From: an uncultured Fidelibacterota bacterium
GTDB lineage: Bacteria; Fidelibacterota; Marinisomatia; Marinisomatales; UBA1611
Assembly: GCA_913040915.1 (NCBI GenBank)
Contig: CAJWHW010000026.1
Span: 1 to 29,189, forward strand
Length of the DNA: 29,189 bases
Reading direction: 5' to 3'
This document shows, one piece after another, positions 6,001 through 24,000 of this stretch; positions within the stretch are counted from its first letter, which is position 1; every line of letters starts with the position of its first letter. A program made the position numbers.

Positions 6001-9000
6001 ACAAAGTACCAATTCTTATAATCTTCATAGCCATCATTATCACTTATCGTGTTTACGTTAGGATCCATCATTTGATAAAAAACGCCCACGGATTCATCCA
6101 TACCTTGGTTAGCAAGATGAACACCATATTCTAAAGCAGCTTCTTCCGGATATCCTAAAGCTGTTATAGCCCCCGTAGATGATGTATTGGTCACATTCTC
6201 CGGCTCTGACCAATTGCGTCCATTATCAGTTGACTTTGCCATCCAAACGTCAATATCAGTAGGAATGATTGTACTATCTTCTCCTCCACCATATTCATAT
6301 TCAGACATTCCCGAAATGGAGAACCACATCACGTCTTCAGATTCTGCGCTCATAGTAATATTTGGAAAAAAGTACTGCATGGTTCCAAGAAAATCATCTT
6401 CGCCGCTATGATATTGTGTTTTAATATTTGAATTAAACCAATCTGCTTCATATTCCATAGACATATCATAGATCAAAGATCCAGTCCAATTGTCTTCATC
6501 AGCCATAGGATCAGGGCTATAAATATGCAAGATACCTGTTCCACCTAAACCGTAAAATGAATACAAGGAATCGGCATAGCCATCACCATCTAGATCTTGG
6601 CAGCCAATGCCAGCGTAGTCTCTACATACATATCTCGTTGTTGGAAATACAATGTGTAGACCGCCATTTACATCAGTCCGAATTTCAGCGGTATAGAACG
6701 GATCCCAACCCGAAGCCATTAGCCAGGGAACAAGACTTACTCCGTCTTCATCAAATTCATCATCATAAAAAAGTGTGTCACCATAATGATAATAATATTC
6801 ATTTCCTTCTGCAGCCCATGCTGAATAAAGTGAATCGGTCAACCGGTGGGCGACAGCTTCACCAACTATATGATAACCAGAATTTTTGAATCCGCCTTCA
6901 TCTGTCCAGGTCTCACCAAAGTCTTCTGTCTTTTTTATAAATATTGAGTGAGCATAGTAACTAGCATTGTCAACATCGGTATCATCACCATCATAGTCAT
7001 CTAAATTCGGCCAACCAACCTGCACCATATATCCAACACCATCAGCATTTATATGATAATCAGGACCGCTAACATAATTACCACCGTAAAATAATGTGTC
7101 ACCATCTTCTGTCATTTCCAAATCATCAGAAAGAACATATGCGTTATTCATAAGAAAACTTCCACTAGTAGTCTGGTAAAAACTTGTAATCATATAAGTT
7201 TTATATTCATTTAATGCCCAGGTATTATAAGCGCCCAAGAATTTATAAGAATTCCCTGCTGGAATTATCATTGCGTTACCATACCAAAGATCGGGAGGAT
7301 CGCAAGGAAAAGTATTACATCCGTTATTTGTTGCCATGGGATCAATCCAATAAGCATCTTCGCCCATACCTAATGTATTAAAGGTGTATAAAGGATAACC
7401 ACCATATTGGCCACCACCGAATGTAGGCAATGTATATTCATTCCAAATTGCAGTGGGTTTTGCACCTTCCCAAAAACCTGCACTGGGATACCGCCCTTGC
7501 GGTGGGCCACCACCAGTTGCAGTAGGAAGATTAGGTGCTTCATCACCATTTGGATATTTCAAATTTAATTCCTGAGACTGGAACCATTCTTCCCCATCTT
7601 CGGATTGTGCAGCACCAATAATCCCGTGAGTGGATTGAGATGAGATCCATTGGCGATAAACAGCAAAATATCCTTCATCAACACCATATGCAAGCGGGTT
7701 AGTTGTTTTACCAAAACCGCCATATCCATTCCTACCTGAATCTATGAGCACTGAATTAAATTCACCGTCCCGACTGTTAGCCTTTGGAGCTTTTCCATGA
7801 TTGTAGGAAATACCATGTGTATTAAATGAACTTTGCCCATCAACAAGTTTAATTCGTTCTAAAGCAAGTCTTGAAATATCTTTTTTCTGTGCATAGACTA
7901 GATTGGATAAAGAAAATAATAAAATTACCGTTAGTAATGATTTAGCTTTTTCTAGCATAATTAGGTCCTCTCTCTTTTTGATTTTTAATTGTTATAGTAC
8001 TTATCGGATGTAGAGTGGATTAGGAATATAAGTACCATCTATTATAAAATTCTACGTTTAAAATTCGAGTCCAATAGCAAATTGATTGGTCTGTTTCAAC
8101 ACATCATAATTCACATGAGCATAATCTACCCGCAAAGCCATTTTACCCAAACGCAAATTCACTCCCGCACCAATACTCCACTTGGCCGTATCATGGTTTA
8201 AATGAGTGCCAATCCTCACAAATGCTATATTCTCCCAGCCATATTCTAGGCCCATACTACCATAAACGACATAGTCACTGGGCTTGATCCCATCCATGCT
8301 GATGATCAACCGGTGACTCTCATTTTTCATAAATGCACTACTGGGCCCCATTAATTCATTCTCTATACCTAAACGGAATATGAGTGGTAGAGGAAACTTA
8401 TCCGTAATGCGCTCTAAACTCTCATCCACATCAATGGTGTCCGGTACCTGTACAGAGAGCCCTTCTCCAGCATACTCAACTTCAGGGCCAAAATTGGTAA
8501 TACTCATACCCAGGATTGTACCATAGATACCTGTATCAAAATTGGAACCTATATCATAGGATACAGCTTGCATGCCTGTCTCCCATATCTTATCCCGGAT
8601 ATAATTAATAGAAGTGCCAATCTTTAGTCTATCTGTTAATGACCTGGCGTATGTAGCTCGAATGGCCATAGACTCTACTTTAAAATCTTCACCTGTCCCA
8701 TCGGGGAATAGCTCTGTAGTTACTGCCATGGGACCACTATCTAAATAAAACAAGTGAAACCCAATAAAATCAGAAGGACCAATCCTCGTGCCATAGGTTA
8801 ATACACCATGTTTAATCCCTGCTAGGTAATTTACTTGAGAAAAATAGGCTTCCTGCTTCTCAATAAAACCAATACTGGATGGATTATAAGGGATACCAGA
8901 AACACCCCGACCCGAAGCAACGTTGGAGCCACCCATACCAATAGCCCTGGCTGAAGTCTCAAGCTTTAAAAAACTGCCTGCAGCTGTAGCAACCTTTGTA

Positions 9001-21000: not shown

Positions 21001-24000
21001 ATGGTAATTTGATACTGCAGATTGGGCATCACCATATTCTGCATTAAAACCACCGGGCTGCCAATCAAACTCTTTCACAGCAAATAGATTTAGCCGAGTG
21101 CCCGATCCAATTGAACCAAAAATTGGATTTCGCAGATACATTCCATCCATCATATAAGCAATTTGTCCGGAGCGACCTCCCTTTACATGTATTTCTTCAA
21201 TGCCACGTTCTTCATGGTTTGGGACTGATTTAGTTCGGCTTTCAACTTTTACTACACCAGATTGCAAAGTATATAACTCTGTAAGGTCACGGATTGGAAG
21301 TGATTCGATCGCTTCCTTATCCACGGTAACTTTTTTTGATGTGTTTCCACGCTCAACTAAAGGACGGCTACCAAGGACTTCTACTTCCTGACCTTTAATT
21401 ACTTCTTCTTCTAATTTGAAATTTAGCCAAACAGTTTGATCCATCATGACATGAATTTCTAACTTAGTGGTTTTAGCATAACCAATCATTGTACAAACTA
21501 CATCATAGGTGCCAACTGGAATATTCAGGATAAGATAGTTCCCATCCATGTCAGTCGCCGCTCCAATATTAAGGTCTGGAATTATTACGTTAGCACCTGG
21601 GAGAGGCACGCCATCAACATCTGTAATTTTTCCACGTATTGTCCCATCGGTTCCGGCTATTAGGATAGATGCATAAAAAATTAATATGGTAATATATCTC
21701 AATGGAATCATTGGTTCAGCTCCATTAAATCGAGTGTTTGAATCCCCTTTTGAGCACTGATACGGAGAGGCTCATAGTCAAAATCAGGGTGATTACCAAT
21801 ATCACGCAATTCAATTGTATTTACTGGATGGGTTAATTTTCGAAAAACACCAGCTGATTCTATTTTGTCAATCGATGTTAATTCTATTCTATTTAAACCA
21901 ACCCAAGCTTCATTATTCTCATCTGGTTCACCGTTATCTGTGAAATCTTCATTATATGGATTTTCAGTCCAGCGGATATGGATCTCACTTTTGACTAACC
22001 CTTTATTCTTAACTAGCCATGATTCCGTACGCTCACCATACTCTACACCAGTACCTATCATTGTCATGGTAGTAATCTGGGTTACTTTAAAACACTCTGT
22101 AAAAGTTGTATCTGCTGGAGGACACTCTTCGCTATTATTTACAATTTCATCGGTAGCTAGACATTGATAATTTCCATCATCTGTAGCATTGAAACTTATT
22201 CTTGCAGCTGGTACAGTAACAGTATCAGATTCTACATTATAACTTTTTTGAATGTAATAGACAGCAATACCGGTGGTATCATAGTATGCTGTATCCACCT
22301 GCTCACCATCACGCAAATTACCGCCAGATGTGTAATATAGCACTTCGCTTTGCAAATCAGGTTTATGCCAAAAACCATTTTGTATTTCCTTTGGAGCAAA
22401 ATAGAAACCAACCGGAAGAAAATATGATGGATAAACAACTTGGTTTAAATGGTTTGGCTCATGAAAAATATGATAGTTGTAGTTTCGTTCGATTGTACTA
22501 CCACTTTTGCGGTACCATTCAGACTTTGTTATATAATAATCATCTGCAGATATGGAAGAACCATTTATGTGACCAATTTTTTTGCGTGTATAAAGTGTTA
22601 CCAGTGAGTCTATATCATCCACATATTGCTGTTTTAAATCATTAAAATCAACTGTCCCTATTAAGTTATTATATTCATTGCCCCAACGATCGATTATATC
22701 ATCTCCTACTTCAACTTCTAAAAGAACTTTAGGATCTTCAGTGTCAGTGTAATCTACAATAAGGTTATTGGGTTTATCGCCAATAAGATATAGGTACTTT
22801 TCAGATGTACCATCTCCATCAGAATCTTTCATCGTATATTCTTCTTCTAAATCAAAGATCTTGTTTCCTCGATCACAAAACCCACCATCAGTATCTACTA
22901 AATAATTTCCGATTCCATCACAATCTGAAGCAGAATTCACACGCGGTTCAGCATTATCCCAGATTTGATTGCAATTGCGGTCCTGATAAGGCTCGCTTAT
23001 GTTGTATACTTGGTCAGCATTAATATCATAATAAGGTTCAGCTCGATCCCAAATACCATTACCCCTATCAATGAACTCATAGGCAATCGATATGATATCA
23101 TTTCCATCATAATCCTGGATAAGACTATCACCTTCGTCATATTCTCCATTATTATTGTTATCTTTATATTCATATAATGCTTCATATTTACCATCACCGT
23201 TAAAGTCTGTCAAAGTAGTCTCACCCTCATCCCATGTACCATTATCATTGCAATCTGTATTAATTCGAAATACGAGCGAATCCGCACTAAGCTCTTGTTT
23301 TTCAAATTCGAAATTTGAAACGAATCGAATTTGATTATCATTTAAAAAGACATAATTGGTATCAAGCCATTCTGAAGAATCAACAAACAATAAACCTTGA
23401 TCAATAAACGGAGTATCTACAACGGCTCGGTAGGCACTTACATCAAATGTATCTGAGTAATAAAGTGTTGTATCAGCCTGGATCCAATCAGAGTTTACCA
23501 ATTTATAACGTTGCAGTGATGGATCTGCTAAAAGATCCCATTCTAATTTTTCAAGATTTTTAAAAGAAGTAGATACCATTAGTAAAGAATCAGAAACGAT
23601 GGAATCTTTCACTGAAAGTGAATCAATAGAATATCGGCGAGTAAATTCATTTTTATCCGATGGAGTCATTGAAAGAAGATAATTATTAAAGGTTTTGAAC
23701 TCCATCTCAGGAGGAGTTTCACCCCGCTGGTTATAATATTCTAAATAAGTATTATACCCAGCCATTAAACTAGGATCATAACGAAAAAAGTTAGCATTTA
23801 TCTCGTCTTCGAAATTATAAAAATAGTCTGATATCGAACCGGAAGCACCTGGTAGATCTTCATTCAAAGTATTTCTCAATGAAGTTTGATTATTTGAAGC
23901 TTCCGTTGAAATCTCTTCTTCACAACCAAATTGGGATAAACTAATAGCTAATAAAAAGAGAGAAAGTTGTTTATTCATTTATAATTTGTTGAGTTTCAAC

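What a model noticed while it worked through the whole genome (the two positions that open the first line are those of the whole stretch)
8058..21711. Cassettes of TonB-dependent transporter, large protein with a PorZ/PorU-like T9SS tail (..GKFAVIR) and a private PorV/Po [...]
Five large proteins without any family (g01341 1058 aa, g01339 1653 aa, g01449 1057 aa, g00402 1167 aa, g01325 710 aa) share a ~110-residue C-terminal domain ending ..APGLY.F.V(x8-12)GKFA[IV]I[KR] that the T9SS tail models miss. It is most like the tails of PorZ and PorU, which are not cut off but dock these proteins on PorQ and PorV. The genes sit in cassettes: Oar-like TonB-dependent transporter (g01342)-large protein (g01341)-PorV/PorQ-family barrel (g01340), then a second pair g01339-g01338 (g01338 identical to g01340); the same row is on C5 (g00403-g00402-g00401). 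I propose that each large protein is exported by the T9SS and stays docked on a barrel beside the transporter, a surface cap [...]
Evidence so far: Shared tails, 33-53% identity over the last ~110 residues; g01341/g01449 66% over the full length. NCBIfam on the last 130 residues of four of them: PorZ C-terminus 14-33 bits, PorU C-terminus 19-27 bits, type A tail 18-20 bits (cut-off 23) in 3 of 4; the barrels score 162-194 bits on the PorV/PorQ family model (cut-off 90). Pfam finds nothing else in 1058 and 1167 residues. Homologues in 7 of 16 other high-quality genomes of the phylum; all 7 full-length ORFs end in GKFA[IV]IR; an Oar-like transporter gene lies directly upstream in 6 of 7 loci, a PorV/PorQ-like gene directly downstream in 3 of the 4 loci that reach over 400 bp past the stop. 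Co-folding of the g01341 tail with g01340: ipSAE [...]
(Added by a program. Inside this text positions count along the whole contig: contig position 1 is position 1 of the stretch shown here. "Call 12" and the like, gene names such as g00115 and contig names such as C1 are that model's own, and its searches are not shown. The text may have been shortened before it was handed on; [...] marks where a part breaks off. The agent that wrote the report below was given it as the finding of a first reader that could run no searches.)

Follow-up and report, generated by a model that had tools for sequence, protein, structure and literature searches.

The report
Transporter, secreted surface protein, docking barrel
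In the marine phylum Marinimicrobia, outer-membrane nutrient transporters are regularly encoded with a large secreted protein and a small barrel predicted to hold that protein's tail at the cell surface, which may be this phylum's way of building a substrate-catching partner for its transporters.

Summary
The window (a Marinimicrobia MAG) carries, on the minus strand, TonB-dependent transporter, then 1058-aa protein, PorV/PorQ-family barrel, 1653-aa protein, and an identical barrel.

- **Tail.** All five named proteins end in a roughly 105-residue domain, a well-separated subclass of the T9SS C-terminal domain (98-169 bits against 34 or less for ordinary tails). Its nearest solved fold is the PorZ tail.
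- **Distribution.** The tail is in 121 of 121 sampled genomes of the phylum.
- **Gene order.** A PorV-family barrel follows 42 of 44 best-scoring tail genes from 36 genera, and 23 of 33 tail genes when all tails of five genomes are counted. A transporter precedes 30 of 34.
- **Barrels.** Barrel number tracks tail number. Tandem barrel copies are kept 97-100% identical within a genome but only 52-83% between genomes.
- **Binding.** Co-folding supports tail-barrel binding (0.91 against 0.01 for controls), but solved PorV complexes may explain that pass.
- **Body.** The protein bodies have a galactose-mutarotase-like supersandwich core.

"Private" pairing is only partly right, because two different cargos share one barrel. 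Retention of the tail and a cap role on the transporter remain inferences. I class it as a new variant of known T9SS carrier/anchor pairs.

The parts
21708..23978 (-). First gene of the array: a 756-aa protein with a signal peptide followed by Cys, no family. It is conserved upstream of the transporter in related MAGs.
   Evidence: ORF and translation. No Pfam or NCBIfam hit. Syntenic at 55-61% identity in L002, L003, L004, L006 and L008. Its stop overlaps the TBDT start by 4 nt.
18247..21711 (-). TonB-dependent transporter (1154 aa) with an N-terminal CarboxypepD_reg-like domain and a plug.
   Evidence: CarbopepD_reg_2 scores 61.8 bits (cut-off 32.2). Plug scores 22.6 bits, just under its cut-off of 23.9. 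Orthologues are 66-85% identical. Equivalent upstream genes in other loci pass the Plug and TonB_dep_Rec_b-barrel cut-offs.
15065..18241 (-). Cargo 1 (g01341, 1058 aa): Sec signal peptide, supersandwich core with insertions (aa about 49-726), FN3-like module (aa about 724-955), and T9SS-type tail (aa about 950-1058).
   Evidence: No Pfam family. AF2 model has pLDDT 79.5 and pTM 0.76. VIA-align against the N-domain of GH15 glucoamylase 1lf6_A gives Z 17.6, rmsd 2.9, 229 aligned. There are 317 homologues at E 0.001 or better in the word-indexed search and 4001 representatives in the full scan.
15068..15394 (-). Tail of cargo 1 (109 aa), ending IGKFAVIR.
   Evidence: Tail alignment. Matches the PorZ tail 5m11_A (Z 11.6, 27% identity) and the PorU tail 6za2_B (Z 9.9). 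NF052228 C-terminus scores 27.6 bits. The predicted interface with the barrel covers 6 of the 7 invariant tail residues.
14049..15068 (-). Barrel copy 1 (g01340, 339 aa), PorV/PorQ family. Its ATG overlaps the cargo stop codon (ATGA).
   Evidence: NF033709 scores 162.5 bits (cut-off 90). PorQ equivalog 82.4 (cut-off 220) and PorV equivalog 62.7 (cut-off 250) are both below their cut-offs. Junction sequence read.
9074..14035 (-). Cargo 2 (g01339, 1653 aa): several PKD (K319L-like) domains, an FN3-like module, a further region, and the same class of tail.
   Evidence: K319L-like_PKD scores 199.3 bits in 5 stretches; CHU_C scores 20 bits on the tail. Shares the FN3-like module (34%) and the tail (52%) with g01341. 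Syntenic at 47-53% identity in L003, L005, L008 and L014.
9077..9403 (-). Tail of cargo 2 (109 aa), ending IGKFAVIR.
   Evidence: 149 bits on the tail profile.
8058..9077 (-). Barrel copy 2 (g01338), identical to copy 1.
8057..9102 (.). Exact direct repeat, copy B (1046 nt): the barrel gene plus the last 25 nt of the preceding tail.
   Evidence: The same pattern occurs in 9 other genomes.
14048..15093 (.). Exact direct repeat, copy A (1046 nt).

Best explanation
The region is a conserved Marinimicrobia uptake module. Each large protein is exported to the periplasm by Sec. [quoted passage not shown] The PorV/PorQ-family barrel encoded immediately downstream, and translationally coupled to it, takes the protein out of the translocon.

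The barrel acts as a dedicated carrier and most likely as the permanent surface anchor, one barrel per cargo molecule, in the way PorQ holds the uncleaved tail of PorZ. The displayed protein (a galactose-mutarotase-like supersandwich, an FN3-like module, and in cargo 2 PKD domains) probably works with the TonB-dependent transporter encoded directly upstream. Its likely job is to capture or present substrate. That would fill the gene position and perhaps the role that the lipoprotein SusD has next to SusC in Bacteroidota.

Shown here:
- the domain classes;
- the gene order and its conservation across the phylum;
- the roughly one-to-one scaling of barrels with tails;
- the homogenised barrel duplicates;
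- an in-silico tail-barrel interface that falls on the conserved tail motifs.

Inferred:
- export by the T9SS;
- retention rather than cleavage of the tail;
- any physical or functional link to the transporter;
- the ligand.
For: **1. The tail is a T9SS C-terminal domain.**
- It aligns collinearly with ordinary type A tails of the same genome.
- Its fold matches the PorZ tail (Z 11.6, 27% identity over 89 residues) and the PorU tail (Z 9.9).
- A Caldithrix homologue carries NCBI's name "T9SS type A sorting domain-containing protein".
- The genome has SprA (292.7 bits, cut-off 200), PorU (563.5 bits, cut-off 420), a long PorV-like barrel (238 bits on NF033709) and about 40 ordinary tails.

**2. 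It is a separate subclass.** On the tail profile the five tails score 98-169 bits and all other tails 34 or less.

**3. Gene order.**
- Among 44 tail ORFs in 36 loci (the best listed tail of each of 36 genera, 21 families), the next gene is a PorV/PorQ-family barrel over the cut-off in 42.
- Counting every tail in five genomes, a barrel lies within 300 nt downstream in 23 of 33. A further 3 have one within 1.6 kb, and 7 have none or only a distant one.
- Of the 39 barrel genes over the cut-off in those genomes, 26 sit next to a tail.
- The upstream gene is a CarboxypepD_reg/Plug transporter in 30 of 34. Two more upstream ORFs are cut by contig ends and match a TBDT C-terminus.

**4. Barrels follow cargos, not transporters.** In tandem arrays each cargo has its own barrel gene while there is only one transporter.

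**5. Counts scale.** In the 41 genomes where the count was not capped there are 180 tails and 209 barrels, r 0.91. The 1-Mb genomes have 1 tail and 2 barrels.

**6. Coupling and homogenisation.** Cargo stop and barrel start overlap as ATGA. Tandem barrel copies show 0-28 mismatches in about 1020 nt in 10 of 10 genomes, against 52-83% amino-acid identity between genomes.

**7. Co-fold of barrel and tail.** ipSAE was 0.91 in all three runs and the best of 3 controls was 0.01. At least 90% of contacts agree between runs and the partner's pLDDT is at least 76. The tool's mark was reached by 116 of 157 solved complexes and 2 of 215 mismatched pairs. Sixteen of the 26 conserved tail positions lie at the interface, against 9.5 expected (p 0.003).

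**8. No lipid anchor.** The cargo N-termini are plain signal peptides without a conserved Cys.

**9. SusD is rare.** SusD_RagB was found in only 16 of 121 genomes and not in this one.

**10. Precedent in print.**
- The PorZ tail is retained and binds PorQ, and cognate PorV-like barrels have been proposed to protect tails from cleavage (PMC10202324, passages).
- Type B cargos leave the translocon on alternative carriers that then anchor them (PMC10994853, passages; PMC9143113 and PMC12618676, abstracts).
Against: - There is no localisation, cleavage or binding data of any kind.
- The co-fold pass may reflect solved PorV-tail complexes rather than this particular pair, and specificity was not tested.
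- The 42-of-44 figure comes from the best-scoring tails, which are likely orthologues of a few ancestral operons. The unbiased figure is 23 of 33.
- Seven of 33 tails have no nearby barrel, and the g01449-type subfamily has none within about 8 kb in 4 of 4 loci.
- In contig C25 a barrel follows the transporter directly, with the tail protein three genes upstream.
- Tail and barrel numbers both rise with genome size, and related genomes are not independent, so r 0.91 overstates the link.
- Exact identity of the barrel copies could partly come from assemblers merging near-identical repeats.
- A supersandwich fold does not show sugar binding.
- No PorZ, GldM or PorP was found in this 85%-complete genome. 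The GldM and PorP controls were silent, so those two results say nothing.
Confidence: 0.5

Rival explanations
1. Carrier only. The adjacent barrel is a specialised shuttle that extracts its cargo from the translocon. The tail is then cut by PorU, and the protein is released or linked to lipopolysaccharide like ordinary type A cargo. The barrel recycles and does not stay bound.
For: The tail is homologous to type A tails along its whole length. Thirteen of 42 family members hit TIGR04183 at E 0.01 or better, and one relative is named type A by NCBI. PorU is present. Some tail proteins have no adjacent barrel, as expected if carriers can be shared and reused.
Against: A recycling shuttle does not need one gene copy per cargo gene. 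Here each cargo in a tandem array has its own translationally coupled, homogenised copy, and barrel counts track tail counts. The single long PorV serves about 40 type A cargos in this genome. The nearest solved tail is that of PorZ, which is retained (PMC10202324 passages).
Confidence: 0.25
2. The barrel belongs to the uptake path. As a FadL-like channel it passes a hydrophobic or small product of the locus across the outer membrane beside the transporter. The large proteins use the general PorV, and the adjacency is only operon packaging.
For: PorV-family proteins are FadL homologues (PMC12578637 passage). In C25 the barrel follows the transporter directly. The barrels fall below the PorV and PorQ equivalog cut-offs.
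Against: Barrel genes multiply with cargos, not with transporters, in tandem arrays. Twenty-six of 39 barrels sit next to a tail. The co-fold places the conserved tail motifs on the barrel, at 0.91 against 0.01 for controls. The identical repeat block includes the end of the tail.
Confidence: 0.08
3. The large proteins are surface or secreted enzymes, adhesins or coat proteins, anchored by the barrel. They have no working relation to the transporter beyond shared regulation in a substrate-utilisation locus.
For: Supersandwich domains occur in many glycoside hydrolases, phosphorylases and lyases. The neighbours include secreted peptidases (M43, MAM-domain protein) and, in C5, a GH16-like gene and a LacI-type regulator.
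Against: The position directly after the transporter is kept in 30 of 34 cases across 21 families, with gaps of -8 to +52 nt. That is tighter than ordinary locus membership. No catalytic domain was recognised by Pfam, NCBIfam or fold search. The GH16 neighbour is not conserved.
Confidence: 0.17

Closest known systems
PorZ-PorQ pair of the Porphyromonas gingivalis T9SS attachment complex
   Same: A T9SS substrate whose C-terminal domain is not removed but plugs into a PorV/PorQ-family barrel that holds it at the surface (PMC10202324 passages; PMC10947112 section title). The tail here is closest to the PorZ tail in both sequence profile and fold. The barrels are members of the same NCBIfam subfamily.
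   Different: The proteins are not PorZ: there are no beta-propellers, and NF052228 scores 27.6 bits against a cut-off of 260, on the tail only. The barrels are not PorQ orthologues (82 bits against a cut-off of 220). Pairs are multiplied to between 1 and at least 16 per genome, are encoded as adjacent coupled genes, and are wired to TonB-dependent transporters. That porZ and porQ are not adjacent in P. gingivalis is recalled, not tested here.
Type B C-terminal domain cargos with cognate PorP/SprF-like carriers (SprB-SprF, PG1035-PorP)
   Same: Many cargo-specific carrier barrels, usually encoded beside their cargo. The carrier then anchors the uncleaved cargo. Orphan cargos share a carrier (PMC12618676 and PMC9143113 abstracts; PMC10994853 passages). 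This is the same logic as the cassettes and the g01449-type orphans here.
   Different: The tail class differs: TIGR04131 was hit in 1 of 42 members. The barrel family also differs: these are PorV/PorQ family, and no PorP-family match was found in this genome, although that control was silent. No link to transporters is known for type B pairs.
PorV, the general shuttle of type A cargos
   Same: A FadL-like barrel whose loops bind the tail inside the SprA pore and carry it out (PMC10994853 passages). The predicted interface here uses the same kind of contacts.
   Different: One PorV serves all type A cargos and hands them to PorU for cleavage. Here there is roughly one barrel gene per cargo gene, and a separate, longer PorV-like gene exists (449 aa, C33).
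SusC-SusD pairs of Bacteroidota polysaccharide utilisation loci
   Same: A CarboxypepD_reg-type TonB-dependent transporter gene is immediately followed by the gene of a large surface protein. Secreted enzymes and a regulator lie nearby.
   Different: The partner is not a lipoprotein (no conserved Cys). It does not have the helical SusD fold (the description of that fold is recalled, not tested here) but a supersandwich one. It is predicted to be anchored through a T9SS tail in a barrel. SusD_RagB itself is found in only 16 of 121 genomes of the phylum. No contact with the transporter has been shown.
BamG-BamH of the Bacteroidota BAM complex
   Same: A FadL-homologous barrel that binds a surface-exposed protein through its extracellular loops while packing against another barrel (PMC12578637 passage). 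This is a precedent for a small barrel acting as an adaptor between a surface protein and a large barrel.
   Different: Different families and a different machine. BamH is a lipoprotein, not a T9SS cargo.

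Membership tests
T9SS C-terminal sorting domain, type A (TIGR04183 / PF18962) | Score over the curated cut-off of the type A models | tested here: not met
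   g01341, g01339, g00402, g01449 and g01325 show no TIGR04183 or PF18962 hit at the thresholds used. Among 42 family members, 13 hit TIGR04183 at E 0.01 or better and 3 hit PF18962. One Caldithrix relative carries the NCBI type A name.
T9SS C-terminal sorting domain, type A (TIGR04183 / PF18962) | C-terminal beta-sandwich of about 7 strands, homologous to known tails | tested here: met
   PorZ tail Z 11.6, rmsd 2.8, 89 aligned. PorU tail Z 9.9, rmsd 2.5, 88 aligned. Collinear profile alignment with ordinary tails of the genome, E 1e-13 to 1e-6.
T9SS C-terminal sorting domain, type A (TIGR04183 / PF18962) | Removal of the tail by PorU and attachment to lipopolysaccharide | not testable with these tools
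   This needs proteomics or biochemistry.
PorZ (NF052228) | Whole-protein score over 260 bits, and the two beta-propeller body | tested here: not met
   27.6 bits, aligned on the tail only (model positions 666-757). The body is a supersandwich plus an FN3-like module.
PorV/PorQ family (NF033709), for the barrels | Score over the subfamily cut-off of 90 bits across the full length | tested here: met
   162.5 bits, model positions 2-326. 42 of 44 downstream neighbours in other genomes score 118-226 bits.
PorQ (NF033711) and PorV (NF033710) equivalogs, for the barrels | Score over 220 bits (PorQ) or 250 bits (PorV) | tested here: not met
   82.4 and 62.7 bits. The barrels are therefore neither PorQ nor PorV orthologues by these models.
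Type B tail with PorP/SprF carrier | TIGR04131 tail and a TIGR03519 barrel | tested here: inconclusive
   TIGR04131 was hit in 1 of 42 members. There was no TIGR03519 match in the genome, but the control genomes were silent as well.
TonB-dependent transporter | Plug domain and 22-strand barrel, here with a CarboxypepD_reg N-domain | tested here: met
   The window gene has CarbopepD_reg_2 at 61.8 bits; Plug at 22.6 bits is just under its cut-off of 23.9. Equivalent genes in 30 of 34 loci have CarboxypepD_reg plus Plug, and many also have TonB_dep_Rec_b-barrel over its cut-off.
SusD/RagB (PF07980), for the large proteins | Match to the SusD_RagB model | tested here: not met
   There was no Pfam hit in the cargos and no PF07980 match in this genome. 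The fold is a beta supersandwich. Other SusD-like Pfam models were not searched genome-wide.

The most novel reading that the evidence does not exclude
Marinimicrobia, which mostly lack SusD, may build the substrate-capturing partners of their TonB-dependent transporters with the type IX secretion system. A non-lipoprotein "lid" or catcher would be exported through SprA, never cleaved, and plugged by a PorZ-like tail into its own PorQ-like barrel sitting against the transporter. That would give a three-barrel-and-cap uptake machine present in 1 to more than 16 versions per genome. The identical tandem barrel copies would be kept so by gene conversion because different caps must fit one socket. 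If so, the PorZ-PorQ attachment principle is not a peculiarity of the secretion machine itself. It would be a general surface-anchoring system that predates, or parallels, lipoprotein-based SusCD in the FCB group. One Caldithrix-like contig shows the same gene order.
Probability: 0.3. Interest if true: 0.85.

Novelty: new variant of a known kind. Interest (0 to 1): 0.68.

Why it matters
Marinimicrobia (SAR406) are among the most abundant uncultured bacteria of the dark ocean, and their TonB-dependent transporters are thought to be their main route to organic matter. The large proteins here are all "hypothetical". Some of their 90%-identity clusters hold hundreds to more than a thousand metagenomic sequences.

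If the reading is right, it does three things:
- It names a whole class of conserved unknowns.
- It gives a rule for finding surface-displayed proteins in FCB phyla that the current tail models miss: a GKFAVIR-type tail with a barrel next door.
- It extends the PorZ-PorQ and type B-PorP principle of cognate carrier barrels that double as anchors, both to a third tail class and to nutrient uptake.

It also offers a natural case of concerted evolution between tandem outer-membrane genes. I found no paper describing the cassette in seven full-text searches.

Tried and rejected
- **Foldseek on the whole g01341 model.** It returned only FN3/Ig-type hits plus PorU and PorZ at TM below 0.1, so it was uninformative for the body. 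VIA-align over the representatives was needed.
- **Tail specifically PorU-like.** Rejected, because ordinary tails hit the PorU C-terminus as well or better.
- **Lipoprotein anchoring of the cargos.** Rejected, because there is no conserved Cys after the signal peptide. The LIGC in g01341 is not conserved in its relatives.
- **C5 cassette as a beta-glucan locus.** The GH16-like neighbour has no counterpart in the 36 other loci, so substrate inference from it was dropped.
- **GldM and PorP searches of the genome.** Both found nothing, but the control genomes were silent too, so they say nothing. A GldK-like gene is present below its cut-off (135 bits against 350). No PorZ over the cut-off was found in this 85%-complete genome.
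- **Metagenome scan with the Caldithrix-type homologue.** It gave a single locus, enough to show the gene order once outside the phylum but not to count it.
- **Earlier-findings tool.** It was closed.
- **Metatranscriptome contigs.** They cover only scattered 150-250-nt pieces. Parts without cover and depths were not interpreted.
- **ESM Atlas.** It returned only unnamed clusters from Zixibacteria, Gemmatimonadota and Fidelibacterota at 0.91-0.92. These are leads only.
- **Mirror-tree test of tail-barrel co-evolution.** Considered and not run, because co-inheritance in one operon would produce the same signal.

Full report
**What is in the window.**

The window is contig C26 of a 1.86-Mb, 71-contig genome that is 85% complete. 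Homologues carry the names Candidatus Marinimicrobia or Neomarinimicrobiota. All genes of interest lie on the minus strand. In order of transcription they are:

| Gene | Coordinates | Size | Note |
|---|---|---|---|
| Unnamed first gene | 21708-23978 | 756 aa | No family; signal peptide followed by Cys |
| TonB-dependent transporter | 18247-21711 | 1154 aa | CarbopepD_reg_2 61.8 bits; Plug 22.6 bits, cut-off 23.9 |
| g01341 | 15065-18241 | 1058 aa | No Pfam family |
| Barrel 1 | 14049-15068 | 339 aa | PorV/PorQ family, 162.5 bits, cut-off 90 |
| g01339 | 9074-14035 | 1653 aa | Five K319L-type PKD stretches |
| Barrel 2 | 8058-9077 | 339 aa | Identical to barrel 1 |

Three proteins with ordinary type A T9SS tails follow (5676-7958, 2746-5637, 2-2704).

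The two barrels are part of an exact 1046-nt direct repeat. The repeat also includes the last 25 nt of each preceding gene. Cargo stop and barrel start overlap as ATGA.

**The five proteins and their tail.**

They share more than a 110-residue tail. An FN3-like module with an insertion, plus the tail, is common to all five; this is about 330 residues in g01341.

A profile built from 20 tails splits the genome cleanly. The five tails score 98-169 bits, and every other C-terminal domain scores 34 or less. The tail is nevertheless homologous to ordinary type A tails along its whole length. In the AF2 model (pLDDT 79.5) it superposes on the PorZ tail (5m11_A: Z 11.6, rmsd 2.8, 89 aligned, 27% identity) and the PorU tail (6za2_B: Z 9.9).

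Among 42 family members, hits at E 0.01 or better were as follows:

| Model | Members hit |
|---|---|
| PorZ C-terminus | 30 |
| PorU C-terminus | 27 |
| TIGR04183 (type A) | 13 |
| Pfam CHU_C | 10 |

One Caldithrix relative is already named a type A sorting-domain protein by NCBI.

An important control concerns PorU. About 40 ordinary tails of this genome hit the PorU C-terminus at 17-44 bits, as well as or better than the GKFAVIR tails, so likeness to PorU is generic. The preference for PorZ is real but small, at 30.6 and 29.4 bits against up to 25.7.

My reading is that this is a distinct subclass of the T9SS C-terminal domain, nearest to the PorZ tail. The proteins are not PorZ relatives.

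**The secretion system is present.**

The genome encodes:
- SprA (partial at a contig end, 292.7 bits, cut-off 200);
- PorU (563.5 bits, cut-off 420);
- a long PorV-like barrel (449 aa, 238 bits on the family model), sitting next to a type A cargo.

A GldK-like gene is below its cut-off. Searches for GldM and PorP were uninformative because the controls were silent. No PorZ over the cut-off was found.

**The bodies.**

Foldseek on the whole model gave only FN3-type hits. VIA-align against 48,161 representative chains placed residues about 49-726 of g01341 on the N-terminal supersandwich domains of several enzymes:
- GH15 glucoamylase (1lf6_A: Z 17.6, rmsd 2.9, 229 aligned);
- glucodextranase (Z 17.1);
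- GH65 and GH94 enzymes (Z 14-15);
- galactose mutarotases (Z about 10-12).

The 26%-identical g00402 (model pLDDT 67.5) gives the same list, with a top Z of 17.7. No catalytic domain was recognised in either.

The core is therefore a galactose-mutarotase-like supersandwich with several hundred residues of insertions. That fits a binding or scaffolding role but does not show one.

The cargo N-termini are plain Sec signal peptides without a conserved Cys, so a lipid anchor is unlikely.

**Conservation of the cassette.**

The whole array is syntenic in other Marinimicrobia MAGs. The tail profile matches 121 of 121 sampled genomes of the phylum at E 1e-15 or better. There are 1 to 29 matches per genome and 1076 in all.

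*Best-scoring sample.* I took the best listed tail of each of 36 genera (21 families) and fetched about 14 kb around it. This sample is biased towards relatives of the query.
- Of the 44 tail ORFs found there, 42 are followed within -4 to +150 nt by a PorV/PorQ-family gene over the cut-off. The two exceptions are the second cargo of L027, followed by a type A protein, and L031, followed by a 321-aa ORF with no family.
- Of the 34 upstream neighbours that were not themselves a barrel, 30 are CarboxypepD_reg/Plug transporters.
- Two more are cut by contig ends and match a transporter C-terminus. L028 has the transporter one ORF further up.

*Unbiased count.* I listed every tail and every barrel in five genomes, three of them single-contig.
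- Of 33 assessable tails, 23 have a barrel within 300 nt downstream, 3 within 1.6 kb, and 7 none or only a distant one.
- Of 39 barrel genes over the cut-off, 26 lie next to a tail.

*Controls and extensions.*
- In the window's own genome no ordinary type A gene (0 of 40) is followed by a barrel over the cut-off, against 3 of 5 tail genes.
- One metagenome contig related to a Caldithrix-type homologue shows transporter, homologue ending GKFVIIK, then the start of a PorV-family barrel. This is a single case outside the phylum.

**Barrels track cargos and are homogenised.**

In tandem arrays there is one transporter, but each cargo has its own barrel gene. In the 41 genomes where the barrel count was not capped by the tool, tails sum to 180 and barrels to 209, with r 0.91. 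The streamlined 1-Mb genomes have one tail and two barrels. Both numbers rise with genome size and the genomes are related, so this is descriptive only.

In all 10 genomes with a tandem pair, the two copies differ at 0, 0, 0, 5, 1, 2, 1, 0, 28 and 0 positions out of about 1020. Barrels of different genomes are only 52-83% identical in protein. The identical block runs 3-237 nt into the end of the upstream tail and stops within 4 nt after the barrel's stop codon.

The few mismatches show that assemblers can tell the copies apart. Several MAG contigs end exactly at the start of the repeat (L004, L006, L007). Merging of near-identical copies by assemblers cannot be excluded for the cases with 0 mismatches.

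I read this as concerted evolution: two different cargos, with tails 52% identical, use the same barrel protein. That argues against a barrel "private" to one cargo. It argues for a stoichiometric partner rather than a recycling shuttle.

**Binding in silico.**

Co-folding the barrel (35-row alignment) with the tail (20-row alignment) gave ipSAE 0.91 in all three runs, against 0.01 for the best of three controls. Contacts agreed by at least 90% between runs, and the partner's pLDDT was at least 76. The tool's mark was reached by 116 of 157 solved complexes and 2 of 215 mismatched pairs.

The interface holds the VVPNPY, GE.V, PGLY and IGKFAVIR motifs. That covers 6 of 7 invariant and 16 of 26 conserved tail positions, against 9.5 expected (p 0.003). 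The variable last loop, which carries 40-55-residue insertions in some orthologues, is not in the interface.

Because PorV-tail complexes have been solved, this pass may only show likeness to them. Specificity between tail classes and barrels was not tested.

**Context and expression.**

All five tail genes of the genome lie in gene strings that contain a TonB-dependent transporter:
- C26 has two of them.
- In C5 the order is transporter, g00402, barrel, then a conserved 496-aa ORF.
- In C25, g01325 lies three genes upstream of a transporter-barrel pair.
- In C31, g01449 overlaps the start of a 703-aa transporter by 4 nt. Its orthologues in four other MAG loci have neither neighbour.

SusD_RagB was found in 16 of 121 genomes and not in this one. 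Other SusD-like models were not searched.

Marine metatranscriptome contigs from four runs of four studies contain pieces at least 99% identical to the window. Three of them bridge gene junctions:
- cargo 2 to barrel (8964-9143);
- cargo 1 to barrel (14903-15107);
- transporter to cargo 1 (18136-18292).

They lie in RNA libraries but do not prove transcription or a single transcript.

**How it most likely works.**

Sec export is followed by recognition of the tail at the SprA translocon. The adjacent PorV/PorQ-family barrel acts as a dedicated carrier and extracts the cargo. The barrel then retains the uncleaved tail, so the supersandwich/FN3 (and PKD) body is displayed beside the transporter that is made from the same message.

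My odds for each step:

| Step | Probability |
|---|---|
| T9SS export | about 0.85 |
| The barrel is the cognate carrier | about 0.75 |
| Retention rather than cleavage | about 0.55 |
| Functional partnership with the transporter | about 0.5 |

**Comparison with what is known.**

- The principle of cognate PorV-like barrels that carry and then anchor uncleaved cargos is established for PorZ-PorQ. It has been proposed as general in a review (PMC10202324, passages).
- It is shown for type B tails with PorP/SprF-like carriers (PMC9143113 and PMC12618676, abstracts; PMC10994853, passages).
- A FadL-like barrel that holds a surface protein against another barrel is known from the Bacteroidota BAM complex (PMC12578637, passage).

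Four things are new here:
- a third, well-separated tail class;
- the multiplication of PorV/PorQ-family barrels to about one per cargo;
- their concerted evolution in tandem;
- a phylum-wide, tight linkage to TonB-dependent transporters, in the gene position that SusD holds in Bacteroidota.

Seven full-text searches found no description of this cassette. Subscription-only papers are outside that library.

**Verdict.**

It is a new variant of a known kind. It is of real interest for T9SS biology and for the ecology of an abundant uncultured phylum. The two key steps, retention of the tail and partnership with the transporter, are untested.

Noticed in passing
G000 contig C25:23613-31953 (loci L016/L017): Directly downstream of the partial sprA gene lie several genes in a row. 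They are a 313-aa peptidase-like gene, a 286-aa gene, a 556-aa protein with a weak tail-like C-terminus (ends TKIIVVK; 13-16 bits on the tail profile), and two PorV/PorQ-like barrels in tandem (308 aa at 76.9 bits on NF033709; 318 aa at 35.8 bits on PorQ). This could be the phylum's own PorZ/PorQ-like attachment pair.
   Followed up: partly
G000 contig C12:42749-49761 (locus L020): A 1426-aa protein with a sub-threshold type A tail (22 bits) is followed, with a 4-nt overlap, by a 911-aa protein. The N-terminus of that protein is PorV-family-like (74.8 bits) and its C-terminal half is TPR repeats. This looks like a fused form of the cargo-barrel arrangement.
   Followed up: no
window 18247-23978 (transporter and the 756-aa upstream protein): Both proteins contain repeated D-x-[DN]-x-[DN]-G-x-[WY]-D-x-[GA]-E stretches. 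Examples are DQNGNGVWDVGE, DTDNDGIWDG and DANNNGSWDEFRE in the transporter, and DCNDNGTWDEGE, DNNNNGEYDEGD and DRGNGIWDRAE in the 756-aa protein. They resemble calcium-binding loops. This was read from the translations and was not analysed.
   Followed up: no
window 8057-9102 and 14048-15093; also L005, L008, L014, L024, L025, L026, L029, L032, L033: Tandem barrel genes are kept 97-100% identical within each genome, while orthologues diverge to 52-83% at the protein level. The identical block starts inside the end of the preceding tail and ends at the barrel's stop codon. Contigs of other MAGs (L004, L006, L007) break exactly there.
   Followed up: yes
G000 contig C5:35067-36557 (L015:7067-8557) and 10 other loci: The g00402-type cassette has a conserved fourth gene after the barrel. 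It is about 496 aa, has a signal peptide followed by Cys, has no family, and is 31-34% identical across L040-L042, L044, L048, L050-L052, L056 and L058.
   Followed up: partly
window 2-7958: Downstream of the cassette lie three genes with ordinary type A tails. One is an M43 (pappalysin-like) peptidase with FG-GAP repeats. One carries an InhA-like MAM domain. One is a 760-aa protein with no family apart from its tail. This suggests a protein-degrading locus.
   Followed up: no
121 sampled genomes of the phylum: SusD_RagB (PF07980) was found in only 16 of 121 genomes, usually as a single copy. PorV/PorQ-family barrels over the cut-off number from 1 to at least 16 per genome, a large expansion of the family.
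   Followed up: partly
L003:15355-15681 and L008:15223-15549 (orthologues of g01339): The last hairpin loop of the tail carries an insertion of about 40-55 residues rich in D, N, Y and K, between the PGLY strand and the final IGKFAVIR strand. The loop lies outside the predicted barrel interface.
   Followed up: no
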